DNA of 64,000 nucleotides from Eledone cirrhosa (GCA_964016885.1 OZ024743.1:301320001-301384000); one strand, 5' to 3'; shown: positions 743-39,900, counted from the first letter of the stretch. Made by a program: numbers and translations. Notes: generated from the letters alone by a model not told the origin.

Positions 743-756
743 TAATAATAATAATA

Positions 757-945
757 ATTGTTTCTACTTTTGGCACAAGGCCAGCAATTACCCAGTACAT
801 TACTGGCACTTTATTTTATCGACCGCGTAAGGATGAAAGGCAAGGTTAACCTCGGCGAGATTTGAACTCAGAATGGCAAGGGCAGTAAATCTATGCGTCA
901 AAGCATGGCGTCCAACCCTCTACCGATACTGCCAATTCACCGCCC
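757..945 (-). mobile_element. tRNA-derived SINE with Meta-like core and (ATT)n tail
   Basis: On - strand: A box TGGCAGTATCGG, B box GAGTTCAAATC, core GCCTTTCATCCTTACGCGGTCGATAAAATAAAGT, 3' end GGCCTTGTGCCAAAAGTAGAAACAATTATT; about 10 copies in the window. Confidence 0.85.
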
Positions 946-950
946 TTAAA

Positions 951-982
<32 letters not shown>

Positions 983-3987: not shown

Positions 3988-4047
<60 letters not shown>

Positions 4048-4076
4048 AAAAATAATAATAATAATAATAATAATAA

Positions 4077-4107
<31 letters not shown>

Positions 4108-4121
4108 AAGAAGAAGAAGAA
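3988..4121 (+). repeat. Compound (TAA)n(GAA)n microsatellite
   Basis: Direct reading. Confidence 0.97.
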
Positions 4122-4790
4122 GGTCATGAAATCGCTCCCGTAAGTTTTGAATTTTTAACATATTTAAATCATTTGTGAAATAACAACTCTTAGTACAAAT
4201 GCTACGTACAGCATCCGGCTTGAGCCCCAAAAAATTCGGACACAAAATATATTGTCATAAGGCTCAAATATTCAAATATTCAACTTTGTATTGTACATTG
4301 TATATTCAAACAAAGAAAATGGCTATAAATGGAAGAAGAACGCCCCCCTCCTCTATCTACGCTATATAGAACAGCCAAACAACACCAATCTCACCAACAC
4401 CAGAAACAACACCTACCCCATCACCTCTCTGTGTACACTAAGCACAACAGCCAGATAACGGCAATTTCACCACCACCACTCACTACTGCCATCATTACCA
4501 CCACTATCCCATCACTGCCGCCACCACTCCTTCATTGCTACCACCGCTACAACACCATCACTACAGTAATACGATCACATCACCACCACCACTGCCTTGG
4601 TATCGACATCACCACCACCACTGTCTCAGTATCGATACCGCCGCTACTGTCTCCCACATCTCCCCGCCGCCAACACTCCTCCAATGCTACCACCACTATT
4701 CCCCTGTTAACTTGAGAGAGAAAGGGGGAGGTGGCGGTATCACTAGACAAGGGAGAGGCTAGCAAAAGATATAAATAGATTGACTTAGTG
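4121..4790. repeat. Unclassified repeat X, copy 1, upstream of the full-length Dong B
   Basis: AGGTCATGAAATCGCTCCCGTAAG... is near-identical to 8968-9180; the CAC-rich segment is similar to 9180-9520. Confidence 0.85.
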
Positions 4791-5069
4791 ACCGGGCCAC
4801 GGCCAAACGTCAACATCAACAACTATGGGACTGCTGGCTCACCCCTTCCTCACCAACAATATAAAAATCCCCGGCACCACCACCGACGTAGCCAACAACA
4901 ATAACAGCCAACTACAACAAAAAGTATATTATATTATTGTAATGCACTGGGTGATTGCTGGCCTTGTGCCTGGAGTGGAGACAATTATTAATAATTTCAT
5001 TCTTAAGCCACGCAATGCTCACATTAAGGAACCACTCATGATAATAACAATTTAAAACAAACAACAAAA

Positions 5070-8000
5070 AGAAAACCCCGTGACCAAGAAATACCGGGAT
5101 GGCGGCCGGCGGGGAATAGCCGTGTCTCTAGGGGAGAACGACCCCTCTAGTCTTGGTTGACACTCGTTCTAGAAGTGGTAACACGAAATGATTACCCCTT
5201 GGCGGATAAGGATAAAACGCGACAAAATAAAGTAAATGTCTAATGATAACATCTCATACCGGATCGGCCGTCACCCAGTAAAAAAGGGCCGCGTCCCTGA
5301 GAGAGGAACCAGACTGGGGTCGAAAAATCAGCTAATGGTTCAAACCTTCCCATCACTTCGGAGCTGGAGACCTCCCATAACCGGAATACTCCTACTGTTG
5401 GCCCTCCATGCTCACCACCAAGAAATCCAAAGAAAAAGAGAGAAAAATGGTCAAGGGAAGATAATAAAGAAGTCCTTGAGGCTTTCTACACTGCCATGTA
5501 CTACCCATCAAATACATCGAATACAGAACAGACATATATCAACTGGAAAAAGAAACATCCCGAAAACAGAGGCTATATTGACAGTAACAAACTAGCCAAT
5601 ATACGAAGAAATATTGTAAGAAAAAAGTTACTAACTGATATAGAAATTGATCAGATCATGCTATTAGCACAAAGTCAGCGAAGGGAAAATGAAACATGTG
5701 TCAGTGAACACGAGGTAAACTGTAACACTTCGAATCCCAGGGTTGGGGCGGTATCACTGGCAACAGAACAAATTAAAGAAAGGATCGAAAAAGTGGAGGG
5801 AGTGCATGCTCAGGATGAAACTCCAAATGAAAATAATGAGATCGTAAATGATAAAGAAATGAATGAGAATAAACTTGCCAACTTGAAGGATGAAATTATG
5901 ATCGAATGGATGAAAATGAAAGAATCTGACATGGGGCAACGAAACACACTACCTAAGATCCAGAACTCCAAACAGAACCAAAAGATAATACACAAGACTA
6001 ACATAATTCTCAAAAACATTATCATCACAAACAAACTAAACATTACTGATTTAAATCATCTATATTATGCATCGGCTTAAGTCACCACTCACTTATGTGG
6101 AGTGAAGATGAAAAAACAAAGGAATTCCCACAAGAAATCTACTTGGCAAGAGAACATCAATCGCCAAATAAACCTTCTCCGATTTGACATAGAAATTTTA
6201 ACAAACTATAAAGTAGGTGAACATGTTAAACAAACTAAACTTAGAAAATTGAAAAAAAAGTACAGAATAAAATCAACATGTGACATAGACATGCTGATAG
6301 AAATAATCAAGCAAAAAGTGTCGGCCAAAGCTGCTCGTGCAAGGCGCTTTGAAAAACGATCTAGATTCTATAAGGACAATAATATGTTCAAAAACAACCA
6401 AATAAACTTCTACAGAAAAATTGATAAGTCAACAATAACTGCTAAATCAATACCACCCAAGGAGGAAGTGCAGGAATTCTGGGAAAAGATCTGGGCCGAA
6501 GAAAAAGTTCATAACATACATGCCCCATGGATAGACAGACAAATGAAAGATACAGCTCACCTTGAGGAACAAACATGGGAAAATATAACAGTTGAACAGC
6601 TGCGCTTGGCTCTAAGAAAAACCAGCAAATGGAAATCCCCAGGAAAAGACAAAATACAAAACTTTTGGATAAATGCCTTCACATAGTCTCATGAGCTGTT
6701 AGCCCAACTTTACAATGAAATAGTTAAGGAGCCAGAAAAGATACCTTCATGGCTAGTTAACGGCATTATATTCCTGCTGCCGAAGAATGATGAGACAAAC
6801 AATCCCAAAAATTACAGACCGATAACTTGCTTGACCACAATGTATAAAATTTTAACATCAGTCCTAACTGAATACACATATGACCACCTGATAACAAATT
6901 ACCTATTTCCCATTGAGCAGAAAGGGTGTAAACGAGGCTCATATGGCTGTAAGGATCAGCTTCTGGTTAACAAAAAGATACTGGAAGATTGTCATAATAG
7001 ACACAAAAATCTATCGATTGCTTGGATAGATTATAAAAAAGCATTTGATAGTTTGCCACACGGTTGGATTGAAAAATGTTTAGAGATTTTCAAAGTATAC
7101 CCCGTTATCAGGAGGTTTTTGTCATTCAGTATGAAGACATGGAAAACGACACTCCTTTTGAATAGTGAAACAAAATCACTGGAAGCTGGAGAGGTTAATT
7201 AATTGTGGAATTTTTCAGGGTGATTCTTTATCACCGCCTTTATTCTGCATCGCACTTATACCATTAAGTAAAATGCTCAATGAAACAAAACATGGATATA
7301 AATCTATGACAAAACCATTAATCACCTGTTCTACATGGATGACCTGAAACTATTTGCAAAAAATGATGAACAATTGCAAGGGCTATCATCCACTGTGAAG
7401 CAGTTCAGTGATGACATTAAAATGGAGTTTGGACTAGATAAATGCGCTAAAGCAACGTTCACCAGAGGAAAGCTGCTGAAGAGTTCAGACATTAATCTTG
7501 ATCGGGGGGAACGTGATAAGAGAACTTGATCAAGAAAGAACTTACAAATATCTAGGTGTTTGTGAAGGAGACGGAATCAAGCACTCGACAATGAGCGAAA
7601 GGATAAGGAAGGAATGTTACCGCAGAGTAAGAGCAATCTTGAGAACGGAATTGAATTCAAGGAATAGGATCGATGCCATAAACACGCTTGCCATACCAGT
7701 AGTATCCTACAGTTACAATGTCATCAACTGGTCAAGCACAGAGATCCGTAGGCTCGATACAAACATTCGAAAATTCTTAACCATGCACAGAATGCATCAC
7801 CCTAAAGCAGATATAGATAGAATATATCTCCCTAGGAAAGAAGGAGGACGTGGGTTAATCCAGTTAGACATTGCGTTGAAAACTGCAACAATTGGATTAT
7901 CTACATATCTAAGGGAATCACATGATTGTATGATCAAACTCGTTTTGAAACACGAAAGCATCAAAATATCATATTCCATTACAAAACATGCACAAAGATA

Positions 8001-8608
8001 CAGTAATGGACTACAAATTTCAGAAGTCCCATTTACTGCTGACATGGAAAACACAGAAAAAGCAAAGCAGGTAAAAGTAACTGCAAAGAAAGAACTGCTA
8101 CAGAAACTGGCTAAGAAATGGCAAGAAAAGACCGAAAAATAAATGCAAACAGACCTGATATAATATTGAAAGACTTTCAAAAGAGGGTATGCCTGCTAAT
8201 TGATATGTCTGTTCCAATAGACAAGAATGTATCTATAAAAACATTTGAAAAATTGAGCAAGTATAAGGACCTGGAGATAGAAATTGGAAAATTGTGGAAA
8301 TTGAGAACTAAAACAATACCAGTGGTTGTAGGCGCTCTGGGAATGATACTTAAGGGGTCTAATGATTACATATCGCAAATCCCAGGAAACCCGCGTATAG
8401 GAGAAATACAAAAGATAGTACTAATGGGAATTGCCCATATACTAAGGAAGTTGCTGTCAATATAAGTACATCAGAAGTCTAAACAATAAAGATGCATTTG
8501 TGAATATGTATGTTCTTTCTTGAACATGGCGGATCTTGTTGTTTCTTGAGGTCACTGGTTGTGACTTGGTGATAACTCGTATGAACATAAAGCAAGATAA
8601 ATGAAACT

Positions 8609-8610
<2 letters not shown>
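5070..8610 (+). mobile_element. Dong family B, near full-length, decayed, with an internal deletion at ~8130
   Basis: 5' UTR, ATG at 5236, N-terminal W..E Myb-like region, RT (YMDD), RLE RPDIIL..IDMSVP..KLSKYKDL; CCHC/RHD segment deleted; (TAA)n tail. Confidence 0.92.
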
Positions 8611-8643
<33 letters not shown>

Positions 8644-8648
<5 letters not shown>

Positions 8649-8901
8649 GGATTTGGAAATGCCATGAAGTCAGAGTGATACCGATTGTCATAGGCGCACT
8701 GGGGACTATCTCCAAAAGTTTCCAGGGATGGTTAAAGAAAATGGCCCCTTCACGCTTTTTGGAACGCTTCAAAAGGCATGCTTGCTGGGAACAGCAAGAA
8801 CCCTCCGATACGTCCGGAATATCTGAGGCTGCAGGTAGTGGCTTGATATTCATTCCAACGGACTTTCCAGTTAACCAACTTCAATGACTGAGATTCAAGG
8901 A
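8644..8901 (+). mobile_element. Dong family A, very short 3' copy
   Basis: Matches 13232-13492; flanked by (TAA)n. Confidence 0.9.
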
Positions 8902-8909
8902 ATAATAAC

Positions 8910-8944
<35 letters not shown>

Positions 8945-9600
8945 GGGAAGAAGACGCCGAGGTGACGGAGGTCATGAAATCGCTCCCGTAAGTTTTGAAT
9001 TTTTAACATATTTAAATCATTTGTGAAATAACAACTCTTAGTACAAATGCTACGTAAAGCACCCGGCTTGAGCCCCAAAAAATTCGGACCCAAAATATAT
9101 TGTTATAAGGCTCAAATATTCAAATATTCAACTTTGTATTGTACACTGTATATCCAAAAAAGAAAATGGCTATAAATGGAAGAAGAAGAACCCCCCCTCC
9201 TCTCCTCTGGCTACACTATATAGGACAGCTAAACTCACCAACACCAGAAACTAGATACACCACCCACCCCATCATCTGTGTACACTAAACACAACAGCCA
9301 GATAACGACATTTTCACCTTCACCGCCACCGCTCACTACGGCCATCATTACCACCACTATCCCATCACCGCCGCCACCACCCCTTGACTCCTTCACTACT
9401 GCCACCACTACAGCACCATCACTACAGTAATACGGTCACATCACCGCCACCACTGCCTCGGTATCGACATCACCACCACCACTGTCTCAGTATCGCTACC
9501 GCCGCCAGTCTCCCACTTCCCCCTGCTGGCTGCTACTTCCACATTATAGAATTCCTACTACTAACAAAGAGGAAGGCATCAAAATATATAGATAGACTCA
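8945..9600. repeat. Unclassified repeat X, copy 2, upstream of the full-length Dong A
   Basis: Starts GGGAAGAAGACGCCGAGG directly after (TAA)n; homologous to 4121-4790. Confidence 0.85.
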
Positions 9601-9839
9601 AAAGAAAAAAGAAAAAACAAACAACAAAACCAAAGCAGCACAGCAACAACAGCAAAAACGAGAAAAACAAACAGAGAAAAACAAAAACAAAAAAAGAAAC
9701 CCCCAAAACGTAAAGAAAATAAGAATGAAGACAGAAGCAGGCGGACGGACAGAGAAGAGGGGGGAAAAAGTAAAACTTAAAAAACAAAAACTAAGTCAGA
9801 CATTCGAACACTACATTACAATGAAACTTATGCTTATTC

Positions 9840-12800
9840 ATTTTTGGGGCCCTTTCTGCCTGTGTGTTTGTTTGTTTATGTGTGTTCGTATACAGCGTGG
9901 CGATAATGCCACACAAGGGCCAAGTGGGATGGCGGATCCACAGATGGCTATGTAACTATACATTCGCCGATCCTCGATAAGAGTGTTTAAATATCGAACA
10001 TAAACAGTTCGAATAACGGTGAAATGGAGACTAGAACGTCATGTGACAGACTCTCACCCAACAGGTGCCCCCTGGCTCAGCAGCAGGAACCTGACTGTCA
10101 ACCAAATACTGCTGATGTTGGAGGAAGAAGAAGAAGGAAAGGGGCCAGAACCAACTGGACGAAAGAATTGAATAGAACTGTTATGCAATGGTACCTGAAA
10201 AGTAACCCCAAGGAGAGGGGCTACAGGAGACGGATGCATAACATCTGGAACGAGATTGGTTTATTTAAATTAGATGAACAAAAATTGGCCGGGCAGGCTC
10301 GGGTAATAAGAACTAATGGGTGGATAAGCGAGCTGGAACTGGAGGAACTGAGCAGAGAGAATGGCTTGGAGATGGCGGGTGTAGTATGCCAGACAAGCGA
10401 GCCGGTGGGAAATGAAGGTGAGGAGGTCCTGAGAACGGAGGAACCACCCGAAGCAGACAATGATCTGAATACTGAGATAAATAATACCTGGAACAGAGAT
10501 ACGGCCACTGAGGAGATGAATGCTGACGGGCTAGGACAAGATTCGGTTGACATCCTAAATTTAGTGGTAGATGAATTGAACAATGATAGTGGGAGACCTA
10601 TGAACCTAAGATTTGTAGACAGGAAAAAGTTAAAAGAAACAACAGCTAAGGTAAACAAAGTCATCCCATACCTTGAGGCGAGGAGCCTTCACCAGTGCAA
10701 CAATATCCTCAAAGCAACAGCAAATACGGTGAGGAAACTATTTGGTATAAAAGCGAGAGGAAACAACAGACAAGAAAGAGCAGAGCCGTGGTGGAAGAAG
10801 CGACTGAGTGGGCAAATCGGGGAAATGAGAAATGACATAGGAAAGCTTGAGTCACTACTGAATAGGACACTAAAAAACATAGGCACTAAAAATAGACTGG
10901 AAATAAAATACAAAACTAGGAGTAAAAAGCTAAATATTATCATAGAGGAATTGAAGCAACGCATTGTAGCAAAGAGTGCAAAAATCAGGCGATACGAGAA
11001 CAGAGTCAGTCAGTATAAACAGAACCGCATGTTCGACAACAACCAGAAGATGCTGTTTGGACAGCTTGAGGGGAAAGAAAGAGGCAACGACTTGATCCCT
11101 GGGGCGGAACAAACTAAAACATTCTGGAGAGGAATATTGGAGCAGGATGTTAGACACAATGCCCAGGCAGGGTGGATTGAGACAGTACAGAGGGAGATCG
11201 GTGAGCAGGCACAACAACAGACTGATTTGAGTATCACAGTTGAAACTCTTAAGGGGCAAGCCAAAAAACTAACCAACTGGAAATCACCAGGCCCAGATGG
11301 TGTGCAGGGGTATTGGATTAAACATTTAACATCCCTCCACCCGAAGCTGACGGCCATGTTCAATGACTGCTTGGTGTCGGGTGAGGTGCCAGAGTGGTTG
11401 ACAAAAGGTACCACAGTTCTGATAATGAAAGACCGAATCAAGGGTGATGATGTTACCAACTATAGACCTATCACATGTCTGCCCGTAATGTGGAAACTGT
11501 TGACGAGCATTGTGTCTGAGGAAATCTACCATCACCTCCACACAAACAACTTGTTACCGGACGAACAGAAAGGATGCCGAAAGAAGTCACGTGGTACAAA
11601 GGACCAGTTGCTTATTGATAAGATGGTAATGGGGAATTGCAGGAGGAGACACACTGATCTTGCCATGGGATGGATAGACTACAGAAAGGCATTTGACATG
11701 GTGCCTCATTCCTGGATCACCAAAAGCCTGGAGATCTTCAGGGTGGCAGATAACATGAGACAGTTGCTAGGCAGGAGTATGGGGTCCTGGGAGACAGAGC
11801 TGACATCAACTGGAGTATCCTTGTGAAGCGTGAAGATCAAGAGAGGTATCTTCCAGGGAGATAGCCTGTCCCCTCTGTTGTTTGTCCTTGCCCTGATGCC
11901 CTTGACCATTATGCTGCGAAAAGTGAGAGCAGGATACAAGTTGGGAGGGGGAGAGCTTACCATCAATCACCTCCTCTTCATGGACGATCTTAAGCTCTTC
12001 GGGAAAAGTGAGAAGGAGTTGGATGTGCTTGTTGACACTGTCCGTATTTTCAGCAGTGATATATGTATGCAGTTTGGTATTGGTAAATGTGGAGTCATTG
12101 TGATGAAGAGGGGTAGGTTGAGCAGAAGTAACGGGATCCAGATACCAACAGGTGAGATGATAAAGGAAATTGACTCTGAGGAAGGATACAAGTATTTGGG
12201 CGTTCTGGAGGCTGATGGCATAAAGAACAAAAAAATGAAGGTATTGTTAAGAACTGAATACATTCGGAGAGTAAGGAGCGTATTGAAGTCACATCTGAAC
12301 AGCAGAAATGCCATGAGCGCAGTAAATTCCCGAGCTGTGTCTATTATTAGGTACAGTGCGGGAATTCTGAGATGGACTGTTGCTGAACAAAAAGAAATGG
12401 ATAGGAAGACTAGGAAGCTATTGACTATCTACAACATGTTCCACAAGAGTTGTGATGTCGATAGACTCTACCTAAGGAGATCTGAGGGTGGAAGAGGTCT
12501 TATCAGCATAGAGGACTGTGTTCAGATGGAGAAAAACAACCTATACAAATACGTGACCTATAGTAAGGAGCCAATGCTCAGAACTGTTCTGAAGAAGGGG
12601 ACAGTAGGCCAGGGGATGTCCAAGGAGGAAATAACATCAAGGAGGAAGAGCAGCCTTAAGGGAAAATCCCTTCATAGTACCTTCTTTGAGAAAACTGAAT
12701 TTAGAGATCCACAGACATGGAACTGGTTGAGAAGAGGAGACCTCAAAAAGGCTACAGAAGGAATGCTAATGGCTGCGCAGGAGCAGGCCCTCAAAACGAA

Positions 12801-13492
12801 GTGGTTGAAGCACCATATCTACAAGGAGGAGGCTAGCCCACTGTGCAGGATATGTGGAGAGAGAGAGGAGACTGTGGCTCACATTGTGTCCGAGTGTAAA
12901 CACCTAGCCCTGACACACTATAAGGGCTGGAGACACGATGTGATGGGCAGGGTGATCCACTGGCACCTGTGCAAAGTAAACAATCTACCACATTCTGAGA
13001 AATGGTATGAGCATAGGCCAGAGGCGGTGATGGAGAACAATCAGGTGAAGGTGCTGTGGGATTTTAGGATACAGACGGACAAAAAACTGGAACACAATAG
13101 ACCTGACCTGGTGGTTGTGGACAAAGAAAAAAGATCGTGCCTGATTGTGGATGTGGCCTGCCCGTTCGACACGAGAGTGCAAGAGAAGGAGAGGGAGAAA
13201 ATTAACCGATACCAGGACCTAAAGTGGGAGGTGAAAAGGATTTGGAACTGCCATGAAGTCAAAGTGATCCCGATTGTCATAGGCGCACTGGGGACTATCT
13301 CCAAAAGTTTCCAGGGATGGTTAAAGAAAATCGGCCCCTTCACGCTTTTTGGAACGCTTCAAAAGGCATGCTTGCTGGGAACAGCAAGAACCCTCCGATA
13401 CGTCCTGAATATCTGAGGCTGCAGGTAGTGGCTTGATATTCAATCCAACGGACTTTCCAGTTAACCAACATCAATGACTGAGATTCAAGGAA
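9840..13492 (+). mobile_element. Dong family A, full-length R4/Dong-clade element
   Basis: Structured 5' UTR, single ORF, short 3' UTR, (TAA)n tail at 13492-13578. Confidence 0.95.
10024..13416 (+). pseudogene. Dong A ORF (~1130 codons: Myb-like N-terminus, RT, CCHC, RLE endonuclease) with one nonsense codon at 11824-11826
   Basis: The 600 aa and 528 aa ORFs are in the same frame; motifs WKSPGPDG, NYRPITCL, IDYRKAFD, QGDSLSP, FMDD, CRIC..H..C, RHD, RPD..D..K; the paralog reads GGA where this copy reads TGA. Confidence 0.95.
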
Positions 13493-13502
13493 TAACAATA
13501 AC

Positions 13503-13578
<76 letters not shown>

Positions 13579-13579
<1 letters not shown>

Positions 13580-14694
13580 GGGAATCACATGATTGGATGA
13601 TCAAACTCGTTTTGAAAAACGAAAGCATCAACAGATCATATTCCATTACAAAAGTTGCACACAGATACAGTAATGGACTACAAATTTCAGAAGTCCCATT
13701 TACTGTTGAAATGGAAAACACAGAAAAACAAAGCAGGTAAAAGTAACTGCAAAGAAAGAGCTGCTACAGAAACTGGCTAAGAAATGGCAAGAAAAGCCTC
13801 TGTACGGAAAATACACAGAGCGAGCTAACAATCCAGATGTTGACAAAACTTTAACCCATCAGTGGTTGGCATCCTCTGGACTGAAATCGGAGACTGAAGG
13901 ACTGATTATATCGGCACAATATCAGTGTCTGCCAACAACAAATTACCAAGCCAACATAATAAAAAATGGATGCAGCCCATTATGCAGTGTATGCAAAATA
14001 CAACCAGAGACCATTGACCATATAATTTCAATGTGCAGTCCTATAGCTCCAACCGAATACTTAAACAGGCATGACAGAGCTGCACAATACATACATTGGA
14101 TAATGTGTAAACATTTTGACCTGCCCCACCAAAAGAATTGGTGGGAGCATCAACCACCTCCCATACTTGAAAAAGATCACATCTCAATCCTGTGGAACTT
14201 TAGCATCCAAGCAGACCGAAAAATAGATGCAAATAGACCTGATATTATATTGAAGGACTTTAAAAAGAGGGTATGCCTGCTAATTGATATGTCTGTTCCA
14301 ATAGACAAGAATGTATCTATAAAAACATTTGAAAAATTGAGTAAGTATAAGGACCTGGAGATAGAAATTGGAAAAATGTGGAAATTGAGAACTAAAACAA
14401 TACCAGTGGTTGTAAGCGCTCTGGGAATGATACCTAAGGGGTCTATTGATTAGTTATCGCAAATCCCAGGAAACCCGCGTATAGGAGAAATACAAAAGAT
14501 AGTACTAATGGGAACTGCCCATATACTAAGGAAGATTCTGTCAACATAGGTACATCACAAGTCTAAACACTAAAGATGCATGTGTGAGTATGTATGTTCT
14601 TTCTTGAACATGGCGGACCTTGTTGTCTCTTGAGGTCACTGGTTGTGACTTTGTGATAACTCGTATGAACATAAAGCAAGATAAATGCAACTGT
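13579..14694 (+). mobile_element. Dong family B, 5'-truncated copy
   Basis: CCHC, RHD, RPDIILKD; family B 3' UTR; (TAA)n flanks. Confidence 0.92.
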
Positions 14695-15869: not shown

Positions 15870-16245
15870 TTTGCTTTCTTTATTAACCACAACGGTTTAC
15901 ATAAAGTAGATATTAAAGACAGTACAGGACAATACAGGACGGTACAAAATGGGCATGTCAGCGTTAAAAAACAAAAAAACAGGGGATGTAACATAAAAAT
16001 AACAACGAAAAATTCCCCGATAGGGGGGAGACTTCCGAGGGACATTTGTGGAAAAAGCCCATTAAAAGGCCACAGTGACCCAAACCACCAGGGCAAGTGC
16101 CCTCTCCCAGTTTTCCACTTTTAATTTACAGACACATACTCAGAGTAGGCCCATTCACTCGGGCCATACTTGCTTCTCTCACCCATCTTTAAACAAAATG
16201 CAGGGAAGAGAGCACTTCCTTCTCTAGCCTGATTTTCCTTTTCAA
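15870..16245 (-). mobile_element. Tx1/L1-type family 1, 3' fragment
   Basis: Homologous to 18579-18945; 3' end GTGGTTAATAAAGAAAGC followed by (ATT)n. Confidence 0.85.
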
Positions 16246-16315
16246 ATAATAATAAGTAAAGTAATAAGTAAAAGTAAAATAATAAGTAAATAAAATACTA
16301 ATAATAATAATAATA

Positions 16316-17050
16316 AGGAAAGTTTTAGCACCAGTAGAATACAAATATAGACATGACAGAGTTGGCCAATATCTACACTGTGTGATATGTCGGCATTACA
16401 AAATCAAACCTGATGACAAGTGGTAGAACCATCACTCTGACGCTGTAACTGAAGAAGAAAAAGTAACAATTCTCTAGGACTTTCTCGTTCATACTGACTG
16501 GACCATAAAAGCAAATAGACATGACATCATTATAAAAGATCAACATATCAAGGTTTGTTTGTTGATAGATATAAGCATCCCATGTGATCACAATATCGCG
16601 GCAAAAGAATTTGACAAGCTACGAAAATATAAATATCTGCTTATTGAAATTGAGAAAATGTGGCACCTCAAGGCCGTTACAATACCAGTGATTGTGGGAG
16701 GACTGGGAATGATGGAGAAAGGAACAGAACAATATTTGCGAAGGAAGCCTGGCTTACCCTCTCATACGAGGTGCAACAAATAGTTTTGACTGGTACTGCA
16801 CACATTTTGAGAAGAGCGCTATCTCTGTAAGATTGATATCCTTCGCTTTAATTAAATATGCATATGCACATGTGTATACTTTTTTTTTTATATATGTATA
16901 CTGTTTTTTTTATTATTATTATAATCAATGCGCTGTATTAATTGGCTTACCAATGCACACCGTGTATTTATTTGCCCTAGGTGTCAGCAAGACACTCGGC
17001 ATATATCTCAGAAACAATAATGAAAGAAAATAAAAATGATAATAATAATT
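16316..17050 (+). mobile_element. Dong family C, old 3' fragment
   Basis: EYKYRHDRVGQYLH, LIDISIPCD..KEFDKLRKY, TIPVIVGGLG; distinct 3' UTR ending in TAA repeats. Confidence 0.85.
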
Positions 17051-17059
17051 ATGATAAAT

Positions 17060-17270
17060 TGGTAGCAGAAACCTCTGCATGGCAAATATGTGGCCCGTAG
17101 CAAACAAGCACACCCATCAGTGGCTACGTGGTTCAGGGCTAAAGGCGGAGAGTGAAGGCTTCATCTTAGTTGCCCAAGATCAAAGCTTATTAACTCGTAA
17201 TTACCAGGCCAATGTGATGAGAAACGGAATAAAACCAAAGTGCCGATTCTGCAATGCTTGGTTTGAATAA
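17060..17270 (+). mobile_element. Dong-type internal fragment
   Basis: THQWLRGSGLKAESEGFILVAQDQSLLTRNY..KCRFC. Confidence 0.8.
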
Positions 17271-17292
17271 ATTAAAGTACCAATAATGCACT

Positions 17293-17585
17293 GGTTTCTA
17301 CATCTGGCACAAGGCCAGCAATTACCCATTGCATTACTGATACTTTATTTTATCGACCACTTAAGGATGAAAGGCAAAGTTAACATCGGCGGGATTTGAA
17401 CTCAGAATGGCAAGGAACGTAACTCTATGCGTCAATGCATGGCGTGTGACCCTCTACTGATACTGCCAATCCACGGCCTAATATAATAATTGTTTCTATT
17501 TTAGACACAAGGCCAGCACATACCCAGTACATTACTGGTACTTTATTTTATCGACCTCGTAAGGATGAAAGGCAAAGTTAACCTC
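17293..17585 (-). mobile_element. Two SINE copies (full 17293-17478, partial 17489-17585)
   Basis: Match 757-945. Confidence 0.85.
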
Positions 17586-17617
17586 AAATGAACAATGATA
17601 ATAATAATAATAATAAT

Positions 17618-18525
17618 CAGTTCTTTATTAACCACAAGGGTTTACAAAAAGTAAGACATTAAGGACAGTACAGGACAATACAGGACGGTATAAATGGTCA
17701 TTTCTGCGTGTAAAAAAATCCCCCCAAAACAGAGGATGTAACAAAAAAGGAACAATGAAAAAAAATTTCCCAATAGGGGAGAGAGGTCCGAGAGCCATCG
17801 TGGAGAAATCCCATTAATAAAATCCACAGTGACCCTGACCACCAGGACAAGTGCCCTCTCCCAGTTTTCCAACTTCAATTTACATGCACATACTTAGAGT
17901 AGGCCCATTCACTCGGGTCATTCTTGCCTCTCTCACCCATCTTTCAACACAATGCTGCGAAGAGAGCACTTCCCTCTCTACCCTGATTTTCCTTTTCAAA
18001 TAAAATTCGAAAAGAATTAATCAGACGCGTCCACCATACTATATCTTTCGCCATGGCCACCAGACAGATAGCAACTGCCTGCCCTTCCCGGCTAAAGGAA
18101 AAGGGCGAAGCAAACTTCACGATGGCCTAAGCTGATAGCGGGATCCGTTCTACACGCGGCAGCATGTGTTCGACATAAACCCACAAATCAGCAATGCTCG
18201 GAAACTAGAAGAGTGTGCGCAGGACGGTTTCGTCACACTGCGCGCATCTCGGACATGCCCGGCTGACGGCACTTACATGACTGTAGAGTTTATCCCGAAC
18301 TCGCAAAGCTCCTCGGTAGCAGTGCCAGGCCAGGGATTTCTGGAAATTGTCCATAGGCCCCGGCCCGGTAGTTCTTCCGAAGAGATTGGCTAGTTGATTT
18401 TCTTCGACGCCTAGACTTTCCCCTAGTAAGTCGTCGCTCTTCCCCTCCACTAATCCTCTATTGAACGACAAGGTGGAGTTTCCACCGATCACAATGCCCG
18501 ACTGGTCGAGGGCTGTGAGCGCTTG
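17618..18525 (-). mobile_element. Tx1/L1-type family 1, 5'-truncated copy
   Basis: WHCYRGAL..CPRCAQCDETV C-terminal zinc motif; 3' UTR as at 18579; AAT repeats at both ends. Confidence 0.88.
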
Positions 18526-18538
18526 AATAATAATAAAT

Positions 18539-18578
<40 letters not shown>

Positions 18579-18580
<2 letters not shown>

Positions 18581-21500
18581 CTTTCTTTATTAACCACAAG
18601 GGTTTACATAAAGTAGACATTAAGGACAGTACAGTACAATACAGGCCGGTTCAAATGGGCATTTCTGCGTGTAAAAAAAACAGGATGTAACACAAAATAA
18701 CAATGAAAAATTCCCCAATTGGGGGGAGACTTCCGAGGGACATTTGTGGAGAAAGCCCATTAACAGGCCACAGTGATCCTGACCACCATGGCAAGTGCCC
18801 GCTCCCAGTTTTCCACACTTAATTTAAAAACATATACTCATAGTAGGCCCATTCACTCGGGCCATACTTGCTTCTCTAACCCATCTTCCAACAAAAGCTG
18901 GGAAGAGAGCACTTCCCTCTCTACCCTGATTTTCCTTTTCAGATGAAATTTGAAAAAGTTAATCAGGGCATCACCGAAGCGTTAAATGCTCGTCTTCAAC
19001 CCTTTCAAACGTGCCCACATACTATCTCTTTCGCCATGGCCACCAGACAGATAAAAACTGCCAGCCCTTCCCGGCTGAAGGTAGAGGGCGGGGCAATCCT
19101 CACGGTGGACTCAGCTGATAGATGGATCCGTCCTACACGTGACAGCAGGTGTTCAACATAAACCCACATGTCAGCAATGTTCGGACACTGGACGAGTGCG
19201 TGCAGAACGGTTTCGTCGCCCTGCACGCATCTCGGACAGGCCCGGCCGACGGCACCTCCATGCCTGTAGAGTTTATCTCCAAATGGCAAAGCTCCTCGGT
19301 AGCACTGCCAAGCCAGGTATTTCTGGAAGTTGTCCATAGCCCCGGCCCGAAATTTCTTCCGAAGAGATTGGCTAGTTGATTTTCGTCGACGCCTAGAGTT
19401 TCCCCTAGTAATCGTCGCTCTTCCCCTCCACTAATCCCCTATAGAACGCCAAGGTGGAGTTTCCACCGATCACATTGCCCGATTGGTCGAGGGCTGTGAG
19501 CGCCTGAAGACATTCCAGTCTCCAAGCGCTCCCTCTCGGTCTTCGCTTGACCCAGGGCTCCAGCTCCCTCAAGGAGACGAGCTGGGCAAAGACGCGTCTA
19601 GCAAATGGCGACCACACCTGAGCACCGACGAGGAAGAGGTGGAGATGTCGTAGCCTGAGCGCGTGTCTGCGCATCATCAGCCACGGCATGCCCAGCTCTC
19701 CACGTAGCAACCCTGCTCGTCACATCGTCCCACTTTTTGTCCGTCTGGAGGTCCGGACCGAGCCAGACCCCTAGCAATTAAACCGGTCAATCTGTCCAGC
19801 GCCCGACGACGCTGTTGGACGGCATTGACCTGTCTCTCCAGGTGCCGATCTGCAGGCCCACTGACTTTTCCTGGTTGATCATTGCTTCTGTCACCGCTTC
19901 GTATTCTCTTAGTGTAGTGCCGATCGCCTCGATGTGTTTGGCGTTCGACACCACTACGGTGAGATCGTACGCATATGCTGACACGGATCTTCCGTATCCT
20001 AGTTCGCGCGGGACGCCCCTCAACGTCTCCGGTTTGTGCAGTAATGGCTCCAGAGGCAATACGTACATGAGGGACGAGAGGGGACATCCTTGGCGGACGG
20101 AGCGCATGATGTTGAACGGTTCCGAAAGGTGACCGTTCACTCTCACCACAGAGCAGATGTCGCTGTGCATGGCAGCGATCCAGCCTCTGGAGACAGGCGC
20201 TAAACCAGCCGCCCTAACGATAGGTAACGATGGTCGACCCATTGAAAGCTTTCTACTGATCTAAATTGATCAATGACCCACCCGTGCCATGTTCCCTAGC
20301 TACCCTCTCTACGATGTATCGTATGAGGTGGAGGTTGTCGTGGATGGATCTGTCAGGAATGGCGCATATCTGCGCCTCTCCCACCAGACCTAACGACAAG
20401 CGCCAACCTCTTTTCTAGCACCTTGGCCAAAATCTTGAACTCTGTATTTAGCAGAGTTATAGATCTAAAATTATCTATGTTACCCCCTTTGTTCGGATCC
20501 TTTCTCAGCAGCCCCACAGCTCCTCGGCTCACAGAGCTGGGAATTCTCCTGTTCTGTTGCCAGTTGCAGTAGACGTCCGCCAAGAGGCCTCCGAACAATT
20601 CTGGCATCTGTACGTAAATTTCATAGGGCAGACCAACCAAACCAGGGGATTTACCCCTTGTGCAGCCAGTCATTGCCTCCCGTACTTCAGCGGCTGTTAT
20701 CGGCATTTCGCAACACACAGCCTCAGTGGCCGAGAGCCGTGGCAGTCCGTCGAGGTAGACACTAAAGTCCATCGCTCGATTCGGCCCGCCGCTGCGCCCG
20801 AACACCTGTGCGAAGTGTCGCTGAAAAGCTTCACACATTTACCGGGGATCGAGTAGCATGCGCCCGTCGTGGTCCACCAAATGTCGGATCGTGGCTTTGT
20901 TGCCACGACGCGCCTCCACCACTCGGTCCCATTGAACAGCTTCGTCCCCTCGTGTCTGAGAGCGCGCAACCTAGATCTGACAACGCAGCCTTCATGCTTT
21001 GCATTAAAGAATTGGTCAAGGGCCAATTTCGCCGCAGGTACGTCTGTCGCGATGCCTTTGCTAAGCGCCTCGTCTAATTTCTAACTTGTTCTCCCTCTGC
21101 TCTATTTTTCTCTATTGCTAAAGCCTTACTAAACCTAATGGACTCTATTCTAATCGCTCTTTTCAGAGCAAACCACCACTTGTTGTTGACGATGGCCCCC
21201 GTCAACATCCGCTTAACTAGTTCGCTAATCCGGTCTCTGTATGCCTTGCGCGCCGGTAATGACGCGTTTAGCTTTCAGTAGTGGAGTCCTCGTCTATGAA
21301 GCCTATCTAAGTCAAACACACAGATCACGAATTTGTGGTCCGTGTAGCTGACTATCTTGAATTGTGGACAGCCTATGCTAGAGCTATCTATTTCCCTACA
21401 AAATACTCTATCTAGATATGATCTGGATGACCCTATGCGATTTGTCCAAATCCACATTGGCACATTCGGGAAATCCATATGGTACCTGTCAGACAGTTCA

Positions 21501-24200
21501 AAACGCCTCAGCAGGTTGGTGTGGCTCTTGCATCCTCCACCCCTATCCGCTAATCCCACACAGTCCCAGCCTGCATCTAAGATCCCGTTCCAGTCGCCTA
21601 TTAACACTACAGAGCGGAACGTCCCAAGAAAGGTCTCCAGACGCCGGAAGAAATCAGGCTGCCCTGCCCCTGTCGGGGCATAGAGGGGCACTAGCCTGAA
21701 AGCTTGCCCGTCTCCGCTGGTCACGTCCAGCACGAACAACTTACCTTCTGGGTCCAGGAAGATGGCCGGTATGGCAAGATCCAAACCTCACCGAAAAAGC
21801 ACAGCAACTCCACCCCCCGATCCAGGACGGCTGGGTGATGCGTACACATCGCAGCCGCCGAAGATCGGTGCGAAGGCACGTGCTTCGGACATTCTGGTCT
21901 CGCTGATGGCCACTACATCTATGTTCAGTGACCTGAGGTCGTTGAGCAGCTGGCCCTGCTTCCATGACGACCCCAAGCCACGCGCATTTATGCTGCCTAT
22001 TCTGAATGAGGTCATGTTGAAATGGAGTGGAACAGATGGGAAAGACCACTTACCTTACTTCTCGTAGAGGAAGGATTGTTGCTCCATCCTTTTCACCGCT
22101 TCTGGCCACCTCCTCAAGGATGTCCTTATAAATCCTCCTGGAGAGTGCTTGTCGGAAGTCTCCGATGTCTTTGGGGAATTTTTGTTTTAGTGTCGTGTAC
22201 GTTTTCTGTGTGATGCGAGTGATTTGTATGTGTGGTGGCGGTGTGAACTTTTGGGTTGTTGTGTAGTCTTTTTCTGTGATGCTGGTGTTGTGTAGGATGT
22301 AGTGTAATAATTGGTTGTTGTTCAATTTATTGCTGTGTAGAGGGTATCGATTTGGTTGTTTTGTTATGTTTGCGTTTGTTGTGGGTTTGTTTCTGTTTCG
22401 CTTTTTGGTGACTTTTGTGGCGTTGGTGATGGTGGTGTTGGGGTTAATGATGGTGATAGTGTTGGTGTTTGTGGTGATGTGGTTGGTGATGCTGGTGTGG
22501 ATGGTGGCATAGATGACCTAACTGTTTTGTTTGATAGTTTATTTGTTTCCTTCTGTATTTTGTTTTTCGAGGGGGAAGGAAGTGGATTTTTTCTTTTTTT
22601 TTCTGATACCGTTTCCCCCTCCTCGACGTCACAATCTGTCTCCAGTTGCGAAAGGTCGGGGAGTGGAAAATCCTCCACAGGCGTTGGTTTTGGTTGTGGC
22701 GTGGTGGATGGTGTAGGCGCTGGTGCCAGTTCTGGCCCGTTGGGTTGTGGTGGTGTTGATTTTGCTACTGTTGCTGGGGTTGTTGCTGTTACAGTTGCTT
22801 CTATTTTTGCTGCTACAGTTGTTGCTACCATTTCTGCTACTGGTGGTGTTGATGGTTGAGTCACTGGGGTGGGTAAGAAAGGTGGCCTCAACCTTTTAGC
22901 CTGAGGGCAGAAAACCCTTAGGTGGGTTCCTTCCACACAAACGACACAACTAGGCCTTCTGCCCTCGACGATTACGGTGAGGTGGCTGCCGTCAGTGTGG
23001 ACTATTACCTCTGGTGTCTCCTCAATGCTTTTTTGGTCCGCTTGGATCAGGAGCTCCATCCCAGTTCCGGACCAGTTCTCCTGCTTTCGTTCGGTATTTC
23101 GATTATCTTGGTGTTGGCTTCGATGCCGGCGAGGACGGCAGCCATTAGCCATGGAATTTCGATAGCGGGTGGCACGTGGGTCACCCTGATCTTCACGAGT
23201 CTCTGGCCACAATAGCTTGGGACAAGTGTGAAGTCCTCACTTCTTAATGGGGCCTTGGAATGTTCTCTGGCCTCCTGTGGTGTATCAAAGAATACGTCCA
23301 CGGTTCCATATTTCTGCCCACGTCTGATGTGGGTTTTCTTTTGCCCACACATGTCCCAAAGCCTTTGGGATTTGGGACTCGGATGCCCGTTCCACTCGGC
23401 GCGATTTTATGTTAATCGTCCGATCAGACACGGTGCATAGGCGCCGATGCTCCATTTTATTAGGTGTATGGGGTTGGGGGTTATGGGGCTGAGGCTGACA
23501 CTGCACCCATCTTTCTTTACCATTTTTTAGGCATCTACTAATTCCTCCTAAGTTACCTGGAATGCTTCGCAATTTTTCGCTACTCTGGAAAATACAGGGT
23601 TTTCTTATTCTAACTGTTGCTGTTGTTGTCATCGTTATTTTTGTTATTATTAATTTTAGTTTCAGTTGTGATGGTGGTGGCGTCAGTGGTGTTCTGTGTG
23701 GAAGAGTTCATTTTGGCTGAATTCGTTTCGATATCACGAGATAATTTATTTTTTTCTTTTGTTTCTGTTGTTGCTGTGGTGGTGGTGGGGATGGCTGCTT
23801 CAACACCTGCAGTCATTGGTAATGGCGGGAAATGAATGTTTGCCTGAGACAAACTTAAAATATTGCTACTGCTTATATTTTTAGTGTTGGCAAACGTAGT
23901 AATATTTACAATGGTGGTGTCGGTATGAGGTGTTAGTTTGTGAGGAAGGCTCTCAGCTACTGGGTTCAGCTGCGATTCGGCCATGAATTTTCAAAGAAAT
24001 TATTTTTTTTGTTTGATAATTATAAAAGTTTAAATTTTAGGTTCAAGGCCCCAATCTTTTTGAGTGTCCTTTTCAGAAATCAATCTATGTGCATTTATAT
24101 ACAGTGAACAATAAAAACTTTCCATAAATGGCAATTTTAAACAACTGAAAATAACAAACATTTGCGGAGCTCACGATAATACGATTTACTACGTGCAGGT
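18579..24200 (-). mobile_element. Tx1/L1-type LINE family 1, near full-length, decayed (ORF1 ~23984-22050, ORF2 ~22015-18850)
   Basis: ORF1 has CVVCVEGTHLRVFC gag knuckle and a P/T-rich tail; ORF2 has APE motifs (SINARGL, AISET, YAP, IGDWN, YLDR, TDH), RT motifs (KSPG, VRQGCPLS, YAYD) and CPRC..H...C; 5' boundary uncertain. Confidence 0.9.
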
Positions 24201-36907: not shown

Positions 36908-39900
36908 GATTTCATTTATTGGCCACAAGGGCCGACATATAGGGGACAATACAAAAGACTGGGACAGAGGGGTTTTACAGAAAAATCGAGTAAACAATAT
37001 GAATAACAATAACAAAGTAACAATAAAAATACAACAAGAAAAATTCCCCAATAGCGGGGATGACCACCCAGGGTTCAGTCCGGTACCCCTTCAATCCTGA
37101 ACGACCCGACGCTTCGAGAGCATCTTGGAAGGGCACCCCTCTCCTCCTCAAATATACCCACCTATAGCCGCATGACCAGAGTAGACCTACTCACACTGGC
37201 CATTATCGCCACATTCACCCGCCTTTCAGCAAATGTACTGGGGGGGGGGGGGGGGGGCAGCACTTCTCTCTCCACCCTCAACTTCCTTTCCAAGTGAAAT
37301 TTGAAAAAGTTGATGAGGGATTGGCCGAAGAGAAAAGTGTCTCTCTTCAGTCATTTCAACTTCGTCCACCATAAAACCTCTTTCGCTACAGCCACCAGAC
37401 AGAGGAAAATTGCCTGCCCTTCCTGGCCAAAAGAAGGCGGCGGGCTAATCTTCCCTATGGACTCGGCCGACAGCCGAATCCGTTCTACACGCGACAACAG
37501 CTGTTCGACATAACTCCACAATTCAGTAATCCGCTGGAGGAATGCGTGCAAAACAGTTTGTCGCTCTGCGCGCATCTCGCGCAGTCCGTCTGACAGCACT
37601 TCCATCCCTGTAGATTTTATCTCGAACCGGCAGTGTCCCCCGGTAGCACTGCCAAGCGAGGGATTTTTGGAAATTATCCATCGTCCCCGACTCGAAATTC
37701 CTCCGGTACAGACTGGTTAGATCGACTTCGTCGACGCCCAGAGCCTCTCCGAGTGCGCGTCGCACTCTCCCACCACTAATCATCTATAGAACACGAGAGT
37801 GGAATTTCCACTGACCGCATTGCCCGCCTGGGAGAGGGCAGTGAGTGCCTGGCAACATTCCACATGCCAGTCAACCTGTCTCGGTCTATTCTTGACCCAG
37901 GACTGCAGCTCAGTCTAAGAAACGAGCTGTGGAAAGGCCCGTCTGACAAACCGCGACCACACCTGTTCACCGTTTAGGCAGAATATCTGGAGATGCCGCA
38001 GCCTCAGTGTATGTCTGCGCATCATTAACCACGGCATGCCCAGCCCTCCACGTAGAGGGTGCTGGCAGCAGATGGACCGCCTCACCAGCGGAACCTGACC
38101 CCTCCACAATAATTTGAAGAGGAGCCGCGTTATGATGGCGAGTCGCTAACGACGGTCAGATGGTAGTAGATGACGGACGCGATGTACGCTTCGCCACCTC
38201 CGCCCGACCTTTCAGTGATAACTTACTCCCAGCCCATTTCTAGGTGAGACTGGCTACCCTGCCCGTCACCTCGTCCCAATTCTTATCCACCTTGAGGTCT
38301 GGCCCGAACCAAATCCCGAGCAACTTTACCAGTCCGTCCGTCCAGCGCCTAACGACGCTGTTGGAAGGCATGGACTTGCCTCTCTAGGTGCCGAGTTGCA
38401 AGCCCACCGACGTTTCCGGGTTAAGTTTTGCCTCCGTCAACCTCTCATATTGCTTCAATAAGTTGCCGACCACCTCGACTTCTGAGGTGTCCAACACTAT
38501 CTCGGTGATGTCGTCCGCATAAGCCGGCACCTTTCCGCGTCCCGGTTTCAGCGGGATGCCCTGCAACAGCTCCAGCTTCTGCACTAAAGGCTCGAGAGTC
38601 AATACGTACAGAAGGGATGGAAGAGGGCAAGTCTGACGGAACGGTCGGGAGACCTGAAACGGTTCCGAGAGGTGGCCATTAATTTTGACCACCGAGCAGG
38701 TGCCGATGTGCATTACAGCGATCCAGCTTCTGAAGACGGGGCCGAAGCCAGCCGCCTTGAGGACAGTCTCCATGTACCGATGGTCGACCCTATCGAAAGC
38801 TTTCAATTGATCTAAATTGATCAGAGCCCCCGCCGAAGCCAGGGTTACACCATACCCTCTCTATGATGTATCGCATTAGGTTGTCGTGTATGGACCGGGT
38901 TGTGTTGCGCAAGTTTGCGTCTCCCCAACCAAATCCCCGACGACAAGCGCCAACCTCTTCGTTAACACTCTGGCCAAAATCTTAAACTCTGTTTTGAGCA
39001 CAGTTATGGGCCTGAAATTGTCTAATGTGTCCCTGTTGTTCTCGTCCCTCCTTAGGAGCGTCACTACGCCTCGGCTCACAGAACTGGGAATACTCGCGTT
39101 TTGCTGCCAGTTGCAGTAGAGGGCTTCGAGGAGATTGGTGTACAAGTCTGGCATATTTACGTAAATCTCTTAGGGCAGACCATCCAAACCGGGTGACTTG
39201 CACCTAATGCAGCTGGCAAGGGCATCCTGAATCTCGGCTAAAGTAATTGGCCTTTCGCAGCGCCCAGCGTCAGCCGTCGAGAGTTGCAGCAAGCCATCGA
39301 GGTAGGGACTGAAGTCCGCCACCGTCTCTGACCCGCCAATTCCCCCGAACAACCGAGCAAAATGTTGGCGAAAGGCCTCACACATCCGCTTGGAAACGTT
39401 CAGCTCGTGTCTGTCTCGGTCCGTCAAAGACCGAATCGTGGGTTTATTACCAGGCTGCGCCTCTGCCACGCTGTCCTATCGAACAGCTTTGGTTCTGTCG
39501 TTTCTTAGAGCACGCGCGTTAGCCCTGACAATGCAACCTTCGTGTTTTGCATTGAAGAAATGGTCTAATACCATTCTCATCGCTAGCTCGTCAGTTACTA
39601 TGCCACTACCAATAGCCTCGTCTAACTTATCTATCAACTCCCTCTCCATTCTATTTTTCTCTAAATTTTCTTTGCTAAATTCTATCGACATTACTCTAAT
39701 CTCTCTTTTGAGAGCCCTCCACCATCTATTTTTGACGACTCTCCCTGTCAACTTTTTTTAAACTAAATTGTTGACCCGGTCCCTGTAAGCCTTACATTGC
39801 GGAAATGACATGTTTAGCTTCCAGTAACCAGGTCCTAACCTACGCGTCTTATCTAGGTCGACCAAACAGATCACAAACTTGTGATCTGAATAGGCGACCG

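What the first reader, a model, noticed from the sequence alone, without database searches (positions are those of the whole stretch)
4121..10023. One ~600 bp leader sits in front of both full-length Dong elements, although they belong to different families
Seen: repeat X (4121-4790 and 8945-9600) begins right after a (TAA)n or (TAA)n(GAA)n tract. In both cases it leads within a few hundred bp into the 5' UTR of a full-length element, family B (ATG 5236) and family A (ATG 10024). X is near-identical over its first ~200 bp, whereas the A and B ORFs are only recognisably similar as protein. No (TAA)n tract separates X from element A, and none of the truncated copies carries X. X contains TATA-like CTATAAAT (~4323 and ~9170). 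Established: R4/Dong elements insert into (TAA)n, so a true 5' end should abut TAA. Inference: X may be a 5' promoter or leader module swapped between, or shared by, divergent RLE retrotransposon families, or an upstream transcription unit they are co-mobilised with.
Basis: partly seen in the sequence, partly recalled or inferred. Interest (0 to 1): 0.78.

Follow-up and report, generated by a model that had tools for sequence, protein, structure and literature searches.

The report
Distant jumping genes trade one leader
Two very distantly related families of jumping genes in this animal genome start with the same front-end sequence, likely their on-switch, and their dead copies record it passing from one family to the other and back again.

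Summary
Confirmed and extended. X is the true 5' end of two (TAA)n-targeting, single-ORF RT/RLE LINE families, A and B, whose proteins share only 39% identity. It is neither a solo element nor a local duplication: one X 27-mer has 1,381 exact genomic matches, and 29 of the first 30 lead into A (21) or B (8). Older copies give the history. Old A subfamilies carry a ~700-nt B leader fused onto the stump of an older A leader (B to A). Later the youngest B took ~600 nt from a contemporary A subfamily (A to B; net leader divergence 0.0%, against 9.5% from its B parent). The window's B copy belongs to that second chimera. An older exchange is likely. X probably works as an internal Pol II promoter: 5' ends cluster at one position, a splice donor at +47 is nearly invariant, two separate copies lack a precise GT-AG intron, and no HDV-like ribozyme was found (Bombyx Dong has one). 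The TATA-like box is not the start. Leader swapping is known among close L1 families; I found no report of reciprocal swapping across this distance.

The parts
3989..4122 (+). (TAA)n target/tail tract followed by (GAA)15, which stands where the first ~28 nt of this B copy's leader would be
   Evidence: intact copies begin GGGAAGAAGACGC
4123..4667 (+). A-derived leader segment (type x1) on element B, from the A-to-B swap
   Evidence: 95.5% to A-x1 copy L096 vs 74% to the B parent leader L106; net divergence A-x1/B-x1 0.0%
4130..4146 (+). Nearly invariant leader motif ending in a GTAAGT splice donor (GT at 4140)
   Evidence: at least 95% conserved in 58 leaders of all types
4140..4315 (+). Stretch equivalent to the 167-168-nt GT-AG intron removed in two B copies elsewhere (L173, L174)
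4661..5235 (+). B-native rest of the 5' UTR; this copy is the short form, ~230 nt shorter than the long chimeric form
   Evidence: 97% to B parent L106; leader lengths 1145 vs 1373
5236..8609 (+). Element B ORF and 3' UTR, decayed (stops, frameshifts, ~415-bp deletion at about 8128)
8643..8944 (+). Short 5'-truncated A 3' end plus TAA tail, the landing site of the full-length A
8945..9410 (+). Leader core on element A (type x2), descended from the B-derived segment of the B-to-A swap; donor GT at 8988
   Evidence: 78.6% to old B leader L160 over 8947-9330; tree
9407..9895 (+). A-native leader (CAC-rich block, A-rich block) ending in a pyrimidine tract and TACAG acceptor-like site (AG 9894-9895)
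   Evidence: homologous to old A leader L176; site present in 6 of 6 A leader types
9896..10023 (+). Structured A-specific segment just before the ATG
   Evidence: z = -3.8, 0 of 200 shuffles as stable
10024..13490 (+). Element A ORF (RT, CCHC knuckle, RLE motif) with one premature stop, and 3' UTR before the TAA tail

Best explanation
X is the shared 5' end of two deeply diverged TAA-targeting LINE families and has been passed between them at least twice in opposite directions; it likely acts as their internal RNA polymerase II promoter. Shown: subfamily series, two junctions, tree nesting. Steps: (0) likely an old exchange gave both lineages the same leader stock. (1) A ~700-nt B leader was joined onto an A element that had lost the first ~190 nt of its own leader. 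(2) That leader evolved within A, and ~600 nt of it was joined back onto B at a short AT-rich microhomology, founding the youngest B subfamily, which includes the window copy. Inferred: because both families insert into each other's TAA tails they form head-to-tail arrays and are active together, so a microhomology joint puts an intact donor promoter on a recipient body. My odds for the route: rearrangement within an array about 50%, template switch during reverse transcription about 40%, other 10%. Any such chimera is at once transcribable and can spread.
For: X is the 5' end of both families: 24 of 30 A copies picked by their ORF start carry X and the other 6 are truncated onto TAA; 22 of 30 B copies carry X, 8 truncated. 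Positional samples: 29 of 30 X copies lead into A or B; of 40 B copies 27 reach X and none shows another leader. Deep split: A and B fall on opposite sides of the midpoint root of a 105-protein tree, each with closer relatives (60-66%, 55-56%) than each other. Swap 1: A copy L155 is 92-95% like old B over the first 700 nt, then 87-97% like old A (one 75% bin); same junction in L153, L155, L222, L223. Swap 2: B copy L104 is 94-99% like A-x1 over 600 nt, then 93-100% like B; same junction in L102-L105; leader net divergence 0.0% to A-x1 and 9.5% to its B parent while RT DNA of the two B groups is 97.2% between vs 97.3-97.7% within. Leader tree: 9 A/B label changes, at least 4 forced by well-supported branches. 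Pol II signs: 17 of 27 5' ends within the first 11 nt; donor motif at least 95% conserved; two B copies at different loci and tree positions lack the same GT-AG intron. Array route: 13 of 30 X copies have an A or B 3' end within 325 bp upstream; locus L175 is a one-off B-leader/A-body fusion inside a locally duplicated A-B array.
Against: No RNA, cap or reporter data were available, so promoter function is inferred. Only 2 spliced copies were found, and none uses the strong A acceptor (0 matches; one search gave 8 point mutants only). The ribozyme search had no positive control. In the leader tree, A copies sharing the swap-1 junction do not form one clade, so there may be more exchanges or conversion than the two I can map. 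Direction of the oldest exchange is not shown: no B copy with a pre-X leader was found. Samples are the best 30-40 hits or the first positions on one contig, not a census.
Confidence: 0.85

Rival explanations
1. The swaps are real, but X is a processing or translation leader: the RNA comes from read-through of host or upstream-element transcription and gets its fixed 5' end by cleavage, as in ribozyme-bearing Dong and R2.
For: Bombyx Dong self-cleaves at its 5' end (PMC3774820, passages). 13 of 30 copies sit downstream of another element.
Against: No Rfam match of note, no HDV-like descriptor hit in 8 of 8 leaders, and the first 146 nt fold no better than shuffles (z = -0.02). Spliced copies keep a 46-nt first exon, which fits a capped start.
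Confidence: 0.1
2. A and B inherited X from their common ancestor and conserved it, like the trypanosome Pr77 hallmark.
For: A short motif is near-invariant across all leader types.
Against: Within A alone the leader core drifts 9-10% between subfamilies and far more to the oldest type; 98% identity between families cannot survive a split that left proteins 39% identical. Family C, ~55% identical to B, has an unrelated leader.
Confidence: 0.02
3. X is an independent non-autonomous TAA-targeting element, and Dong elements merely land behind it; or the two window copies come from a local duplication.
For: 1 of 30 positional copies stops after ~100 nt; local duplications of arrays exist.
Against: No 3' end or tail of its own; 28 of 30 best X hits and 29 of 30 positional hits run on into A or B leaders; the window copies belong to different genome-wide subfamilies, each closer to distant loci (95-99%) than to each other (86%).
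Confidence: 0.03

Closest known systems
5' UTR recruitment and inter-family transfer in mammalian L1 (mouse, PMC3600994; perissodactyls, PMC5872511)
   Same: A LINE body gains a new 5' leader, often from a family active at the same time; DNA recombination, heteroduplex and template switching are the proposed routes.
   Different: L1 exchanges are among families of one closely related lineage, and coexisting lineages tend to carry non-homologous promoters. Here two lineages 39% identical in protein coexist on one leader stock and pass it both ways, in an RLE-type single-ORF element.
R4/Dong clade: Bombyx mori Dong, Ascaris R4 (PMC3774820, PMC7998251)
   Same: Single ORF with RT and RLE, (TAA)n target, no N-terminal zinc finger seen.
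   Different: Dong and R4 carry a 5' HDV-like ribozyme; these elements have a ~1.1-kb leader with a splice donor and no ribozyme detected.
SpIREs, spliced integrated L1 copies (PMC5860796)
   Same: Rare genomic copies with a precisely spliced 5' UTR intron; a conserved donor near the 5' end, which in L1 overlaps a site needed for promoter activity.
   Different: Two copies only; RLE-clade element; effect on promoter untested.
Pr77 hallmark of trypanosomatid L1Tc/ingi elements (PMC4035085 abstract; PMC1874656 listing)
   Same: One 5' module shared by different non-LTR families and acting as internal promoter.
   Different: Pr77 is 77 nt, is also a ribozyme and is read as common descent; X is ~600-700 nt and moved by recent exchange with visible junctions.

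Membership tests
R4/Dong non-LTR retrotransposons | Single ORF with RT domain | tested here: met
   1141-aa open frame in L093; Pfam RVT_1 in A and B; best solved relatives are R2 proteins, E 3.5e-30
R4/Dong non-LTR retrotransposons | C-terminal CCHC knuckle and restriction-like endonuclease motif | tested here: met
   Read by eye in both translations; zf-RVT only weak, E 5e-4; no dedicated RLE profile was run
R4/Dong non-LTR retrotransposons | Insertion into (TAA)n | tested here: met
   28 of 30 copies have a TAA/GAA tract within 45 nt of the 5' end; 3' ends run into TAA
R4/Dong non-LTR retrotransposons | N-terminal SANT/Myb-like domain without zinc fingers | tested here: inconclusive
   No Pfam hit in the N-terminus; no C2H2 finger seen; no profile-profile test run
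R4/Dong non-LTR retrotransposons | Placement in the R4 clade against named references | not testable with these tools
   0 of 10 homolog clusters looked up carried a name; the label Dong rests on architecture and target
Ribozyme-led RLE elements (Bombyx Dong, R4, R2) | HDV-like ribozyme at the 5' end | tested here: inconclusive
   None found by Rfam, descriptor (0 of 8 leaders) or folding (z -0.02); the descriptor had no positive control, so leaning not met
L1-type 5' UTR recruitment | Leader tree conflicts with ORF tree, with mappable breakpoints | tested here: met
L1-type 5' UTR recruitment | The moved segment is a working internal Pol II promoter | not testable with these tools
   Indirect only: clustered 5' ends, spliced copies
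SpIRE-like spliced integrants | Precise GT-AG deletion in a copy with normal ends | tested here: met
   L173 and L174, 168 and 167 nt, TAA at both ends, different flanks

The most novel reading that the evidence does not exclude
Two LINE lineages as distant as separate subclades run on one jointly evolving, intron-bearing Pol II promoter that replaced the ancestral ribozyme. Sharing the TAA target stacks them in arrays, which makes promoter trading routine: a leader improved in one family is handed to the other, at least three times. This would be the opposite of the L1 rule that coexisting lineages need different promoters, and a full fossil record of how LINEs get new promoters.
Probability: 0.55. 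Interest if true: 0.75.

Novelty: new variant of a known kind. Interest (0 to 1): 0.62.

Why it matters
Where LINEs get new promoters, and how, is an open question; in L1 the donor is often unknown. Here donor, recipient, junction and order are all preserved in hundreds of copies, across a protein distance where homologous recombination of the bodies is not possible. It suggests that a shared target site creates a pool of exchangeable regulatory parts, that target-specific RLE elements need not rely on a ribozyme, and that host silencing aimed at one leader would hit both families. It also warns that repeat libraries built by 5' similarity will merge or mis-split these families.

Tried and rejected
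TATA box at +200 as the start: rejected (0 of 27 5' ends at 200-260; absent from old A leaders). Solo X and segmental duplication: rejected. Ribozyme: Rfam gave 7 sub-threshold chance matches; descriptor 0 of 8 leaders, 1 of 40 shuffles, no positive control. Splicing to the A acceptor: 0 genomic copies; 8 of 8 hits were point mutants. sees only spliced forms whose next base is not G and about three quarters of end bases; of its 21 hits 17 were point mutants, 2 precise, 2 one duplicated non-canonical deletion. One search was too loose to count spliced forms but revealed older leader variants. Looking for a pre-X B leader: one search listed exact matches first, so old copies were under-sampled; none found among 40. 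X on a third family: family C (39 of 40 best hits fetched) showed no X at its 5' end; about 6 copies extend into its leader and its 5' end was not defined. Expression: no RNA holder listed; contigs of runs of unknown kind were laid once and give no start or splice evidence. Context and names of homologs in other species were not obtained, so whether X exists beyond this genome is open. Earlier scan notes: none for this genome. Literature searches for prior reports of such swapping returned 0 papers; the library lacks most subscription journals and Repbase reports.

Full report
Observation. The two X copies are real: 4123-4667 vs 8971-9526, 86% overall and 211 of 218 over the first stretch. Coordinates of ATGs, CTATAAAT boxes and tracts are right. 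The window lies in a 3.0-Gb animal genome; the host taxon was not established. Element A (8945-13490) has one premature stop; element B (4123-8609) is 5'-near-complete but decayed.

The families. Both have one ORF with RT (Pfam RVT_1), a CCHC knuckle and an RLE-type motif read by eye; an intact A frame of 1141 aa is 39% identical to B over residues 302-1141 and 34-35% in alignments that include the N-terminus. In a FastTree of A, B and 103 of 120 homologs (those covering the region), A and B lie on opposite sides of the midpoint root; A has relatives at 60-66% and B at 55-56%. The name Dong rests on architecture and the TAA target (PMC7998251, passages); no named reference was available.

X is the 5' end of both. 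An X 27-mer has 1,381 exact matches, reversed control 0. Of the first 30 by position, 21 lead into A, 8 into B, 1 is interrupted; 28 of 30 abut a TAA/GAA tract and most begin GGGAAGAAGACGC. Of the 30 best X hits, 26 lead into B, 2 into A, 2 are joined to an A 3' end. Picking by ORF start instead: 24 of 30 A and 22 of 30 B copies carry X, the rest are 5'-truncated onto TAA (each set includes the window's own copy). Of 40 B copies taken by position (40 of the first 47; the 7 skipped were already held and carry X), 27 reach X, 6 end in the B leader on TAA, 5 start at or in the ORF, 1 is joined to A sequence, 1 was mis-windowed; none shows another leader.

History. Leaders fall into types: xr (oldest A; ORF 85-93% to young A), xq (old A and old B), xp (B), x1 (A and youngest B), x2 (youngest A). 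Of the 30 best xr hits, 29 reach A ORF sequence, 1 only the A leader, none B. Swap 1, B to A: A copy L155 matches old B at 92-95% per 100 nt over the first 700 nt and old A at 87-97% afterwards (one bin 75%); L153, L155, L222 and L223 share the junction, where B sequence ends and the xr leader resumes at about +190 with a short stutter. Swap 2, A to B: B copy L104 matches A-x1 at 94-99% over 600 nt, then B at 93-100%; L102-L105 share the junction at an AATT microhomology. Net divergence of the leader core is 0.0% between A-x1 and B-x1 and 9.5% between B-x1 and its parent B-xp, while their RT DNA is 97.2% between and 97.3-97.7% within groups, with B-x1 a young clade in the RT tree. An IQ-TREE of 68 cores needs 9 A/B changes, at least 4 forced by well-supported branches, and none of 200 bootstrap trees separates A from B. 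The window B leader is 95.5% A-x1 over 4123-4667 and 97% B-xp over 4661-5235: its core went B to A to B. An older exchange is likely, since the oldest A and B leaders share their first 100-200 nt (63-86%) and a second block (73-78%). Family C, ~55% identical to B and also flanked by TAA, has an unrelated leader, which hints that B took X from A first, but this is not shown. Against a tidy story: A copies with the swap-1 junction are not one clade in the core tree, so further exchange is possible.

What X does. 17 of 27 X-reaching B copies start within 11 nt of +1, 9 at +39 to +86, 1 at +181, none at +200 to +260, so the TATA-like box is not the start of the copied RNA. The most conserved stretch in 58 leaders ends in a GTAAGT donor at +47. 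Two B copies at different loci and different tree positions lack exactly 167-168 nt from that GT to an AG, as in L1 SpIREs (PMC5860796, abstract and section 10). This shows that RNA containing X met the spliceosome, so Pol II transcription is inferred. A strong acceptor-like site sits 128 nt before the A ATG in 6 of 6 A leader types, yet no copy is spliced to it: unexplained. Bombyx Dong has a 5' HDV-like ribozyme (PMC3774820, passages); none was found here, though without a positive control. No RNA data were available.

How swaps happen. In both mapped swaps the donor gives the intact 5' part and the recipient loses its own, joined at a few shared bases. 13 of 30 copies have an A (5) or B (8) 3' end just upstream, so mixed arrays are common. 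L175 holds a one-off B-leader/A-body fusion next to a second copy of the same privately deleted B leader, that is a DNA-level rearrangement in an A-B array. Template switching fits as well, since donor and recipient subfamilies are of like age (within-group 2.3% and 1.8%). I favour the array route slightly.

Comparison. Mouse L1 replaced its 5' UTR 11 times, often from co-active families, and coexisting L1 lineages tend to have non-homologous promoters (PMC3600994, passages and section 11; PMC5872511, passages). Pr77 is a shared 5' module read as common descent (PMC4035085 abstract). Dong-R4 families are reported as abundant and recently active in octopus, with no mention of promoters or UTRs (PMC13282606 and PMC8967140, passages). 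Searches for reciprocal leader exchange between distant non-LTR families returned nothing. No supplements were read; Repbase-type family notes could hold an earlier remark.

Verdict. Real, and richer than reported: a new variant of known LINE leader recruitment, notable for the distance crossed, the two-way traffic and the complete record. Swap history about 0.9, promoter role about 0.8, overall 0.85. Interest 0.62.

Noticed in passing
window 9821-9895 and all A leader types: A strong acceptor-like site (pyrimidine/GT-rich tract, TACAG) is kept in every A subfamily 128 nt before the ATG, but no genomic copy is spliced to it. It could serve a translated, non-copied mRNA or trap host transcripts.
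   Followed up: partly
window 9896-10026: Stable RNA structure (z -3.8) starting exactly at that site; possibly the element's older 5' end or a translation element.
   Followed up: partly
window 16310-17270; loci L275-L313: A third TAA-flanked Dong-like family (C), about 55% identical to B, older, with its own leader of 1 kb or more.
   Followed up: partly
L211, about 2927 nt from its leader start: Single-copy A/B body chimera: A ORF joined directly to B ORF sequence.
   Followed up: no
window 4078-4122; L004, L011, L015, L016 and others: (GAA)n tracts occur at many 5' junctions, next to or replacing the leader's own GAAGAAG start, and short repeats of the first bases are common; the element may seed these microsatellites.
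   Followed up: partly
L111, L120, L129, L134 (A, leader ~1250 nt): An A-x2 subfamily with a ~300-nt tandem duplication inside the leader.
   Followed up: no
L212, L213, L221, L292, L294; window 744-974, 17282-17585: A ~200-nt SINE-like repeat flanked by TAA sits inside old A and C leaders and throughout the window; it may be mobilised by these elements.
   Followed up: no
window 15870-16247, 17591-21777, 37259-40322 (minus strand): Another repeated retroelement family, on the opposite strand, also inserted at TAA tracts.
   Followed up: no
run X4 laid on window 8900-13600: This run of unknown kind has much higher contig depth over the leader and 3' end than over the ORF, unlike run X1; contig depth cannot be read as expression.
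   Followed up: no
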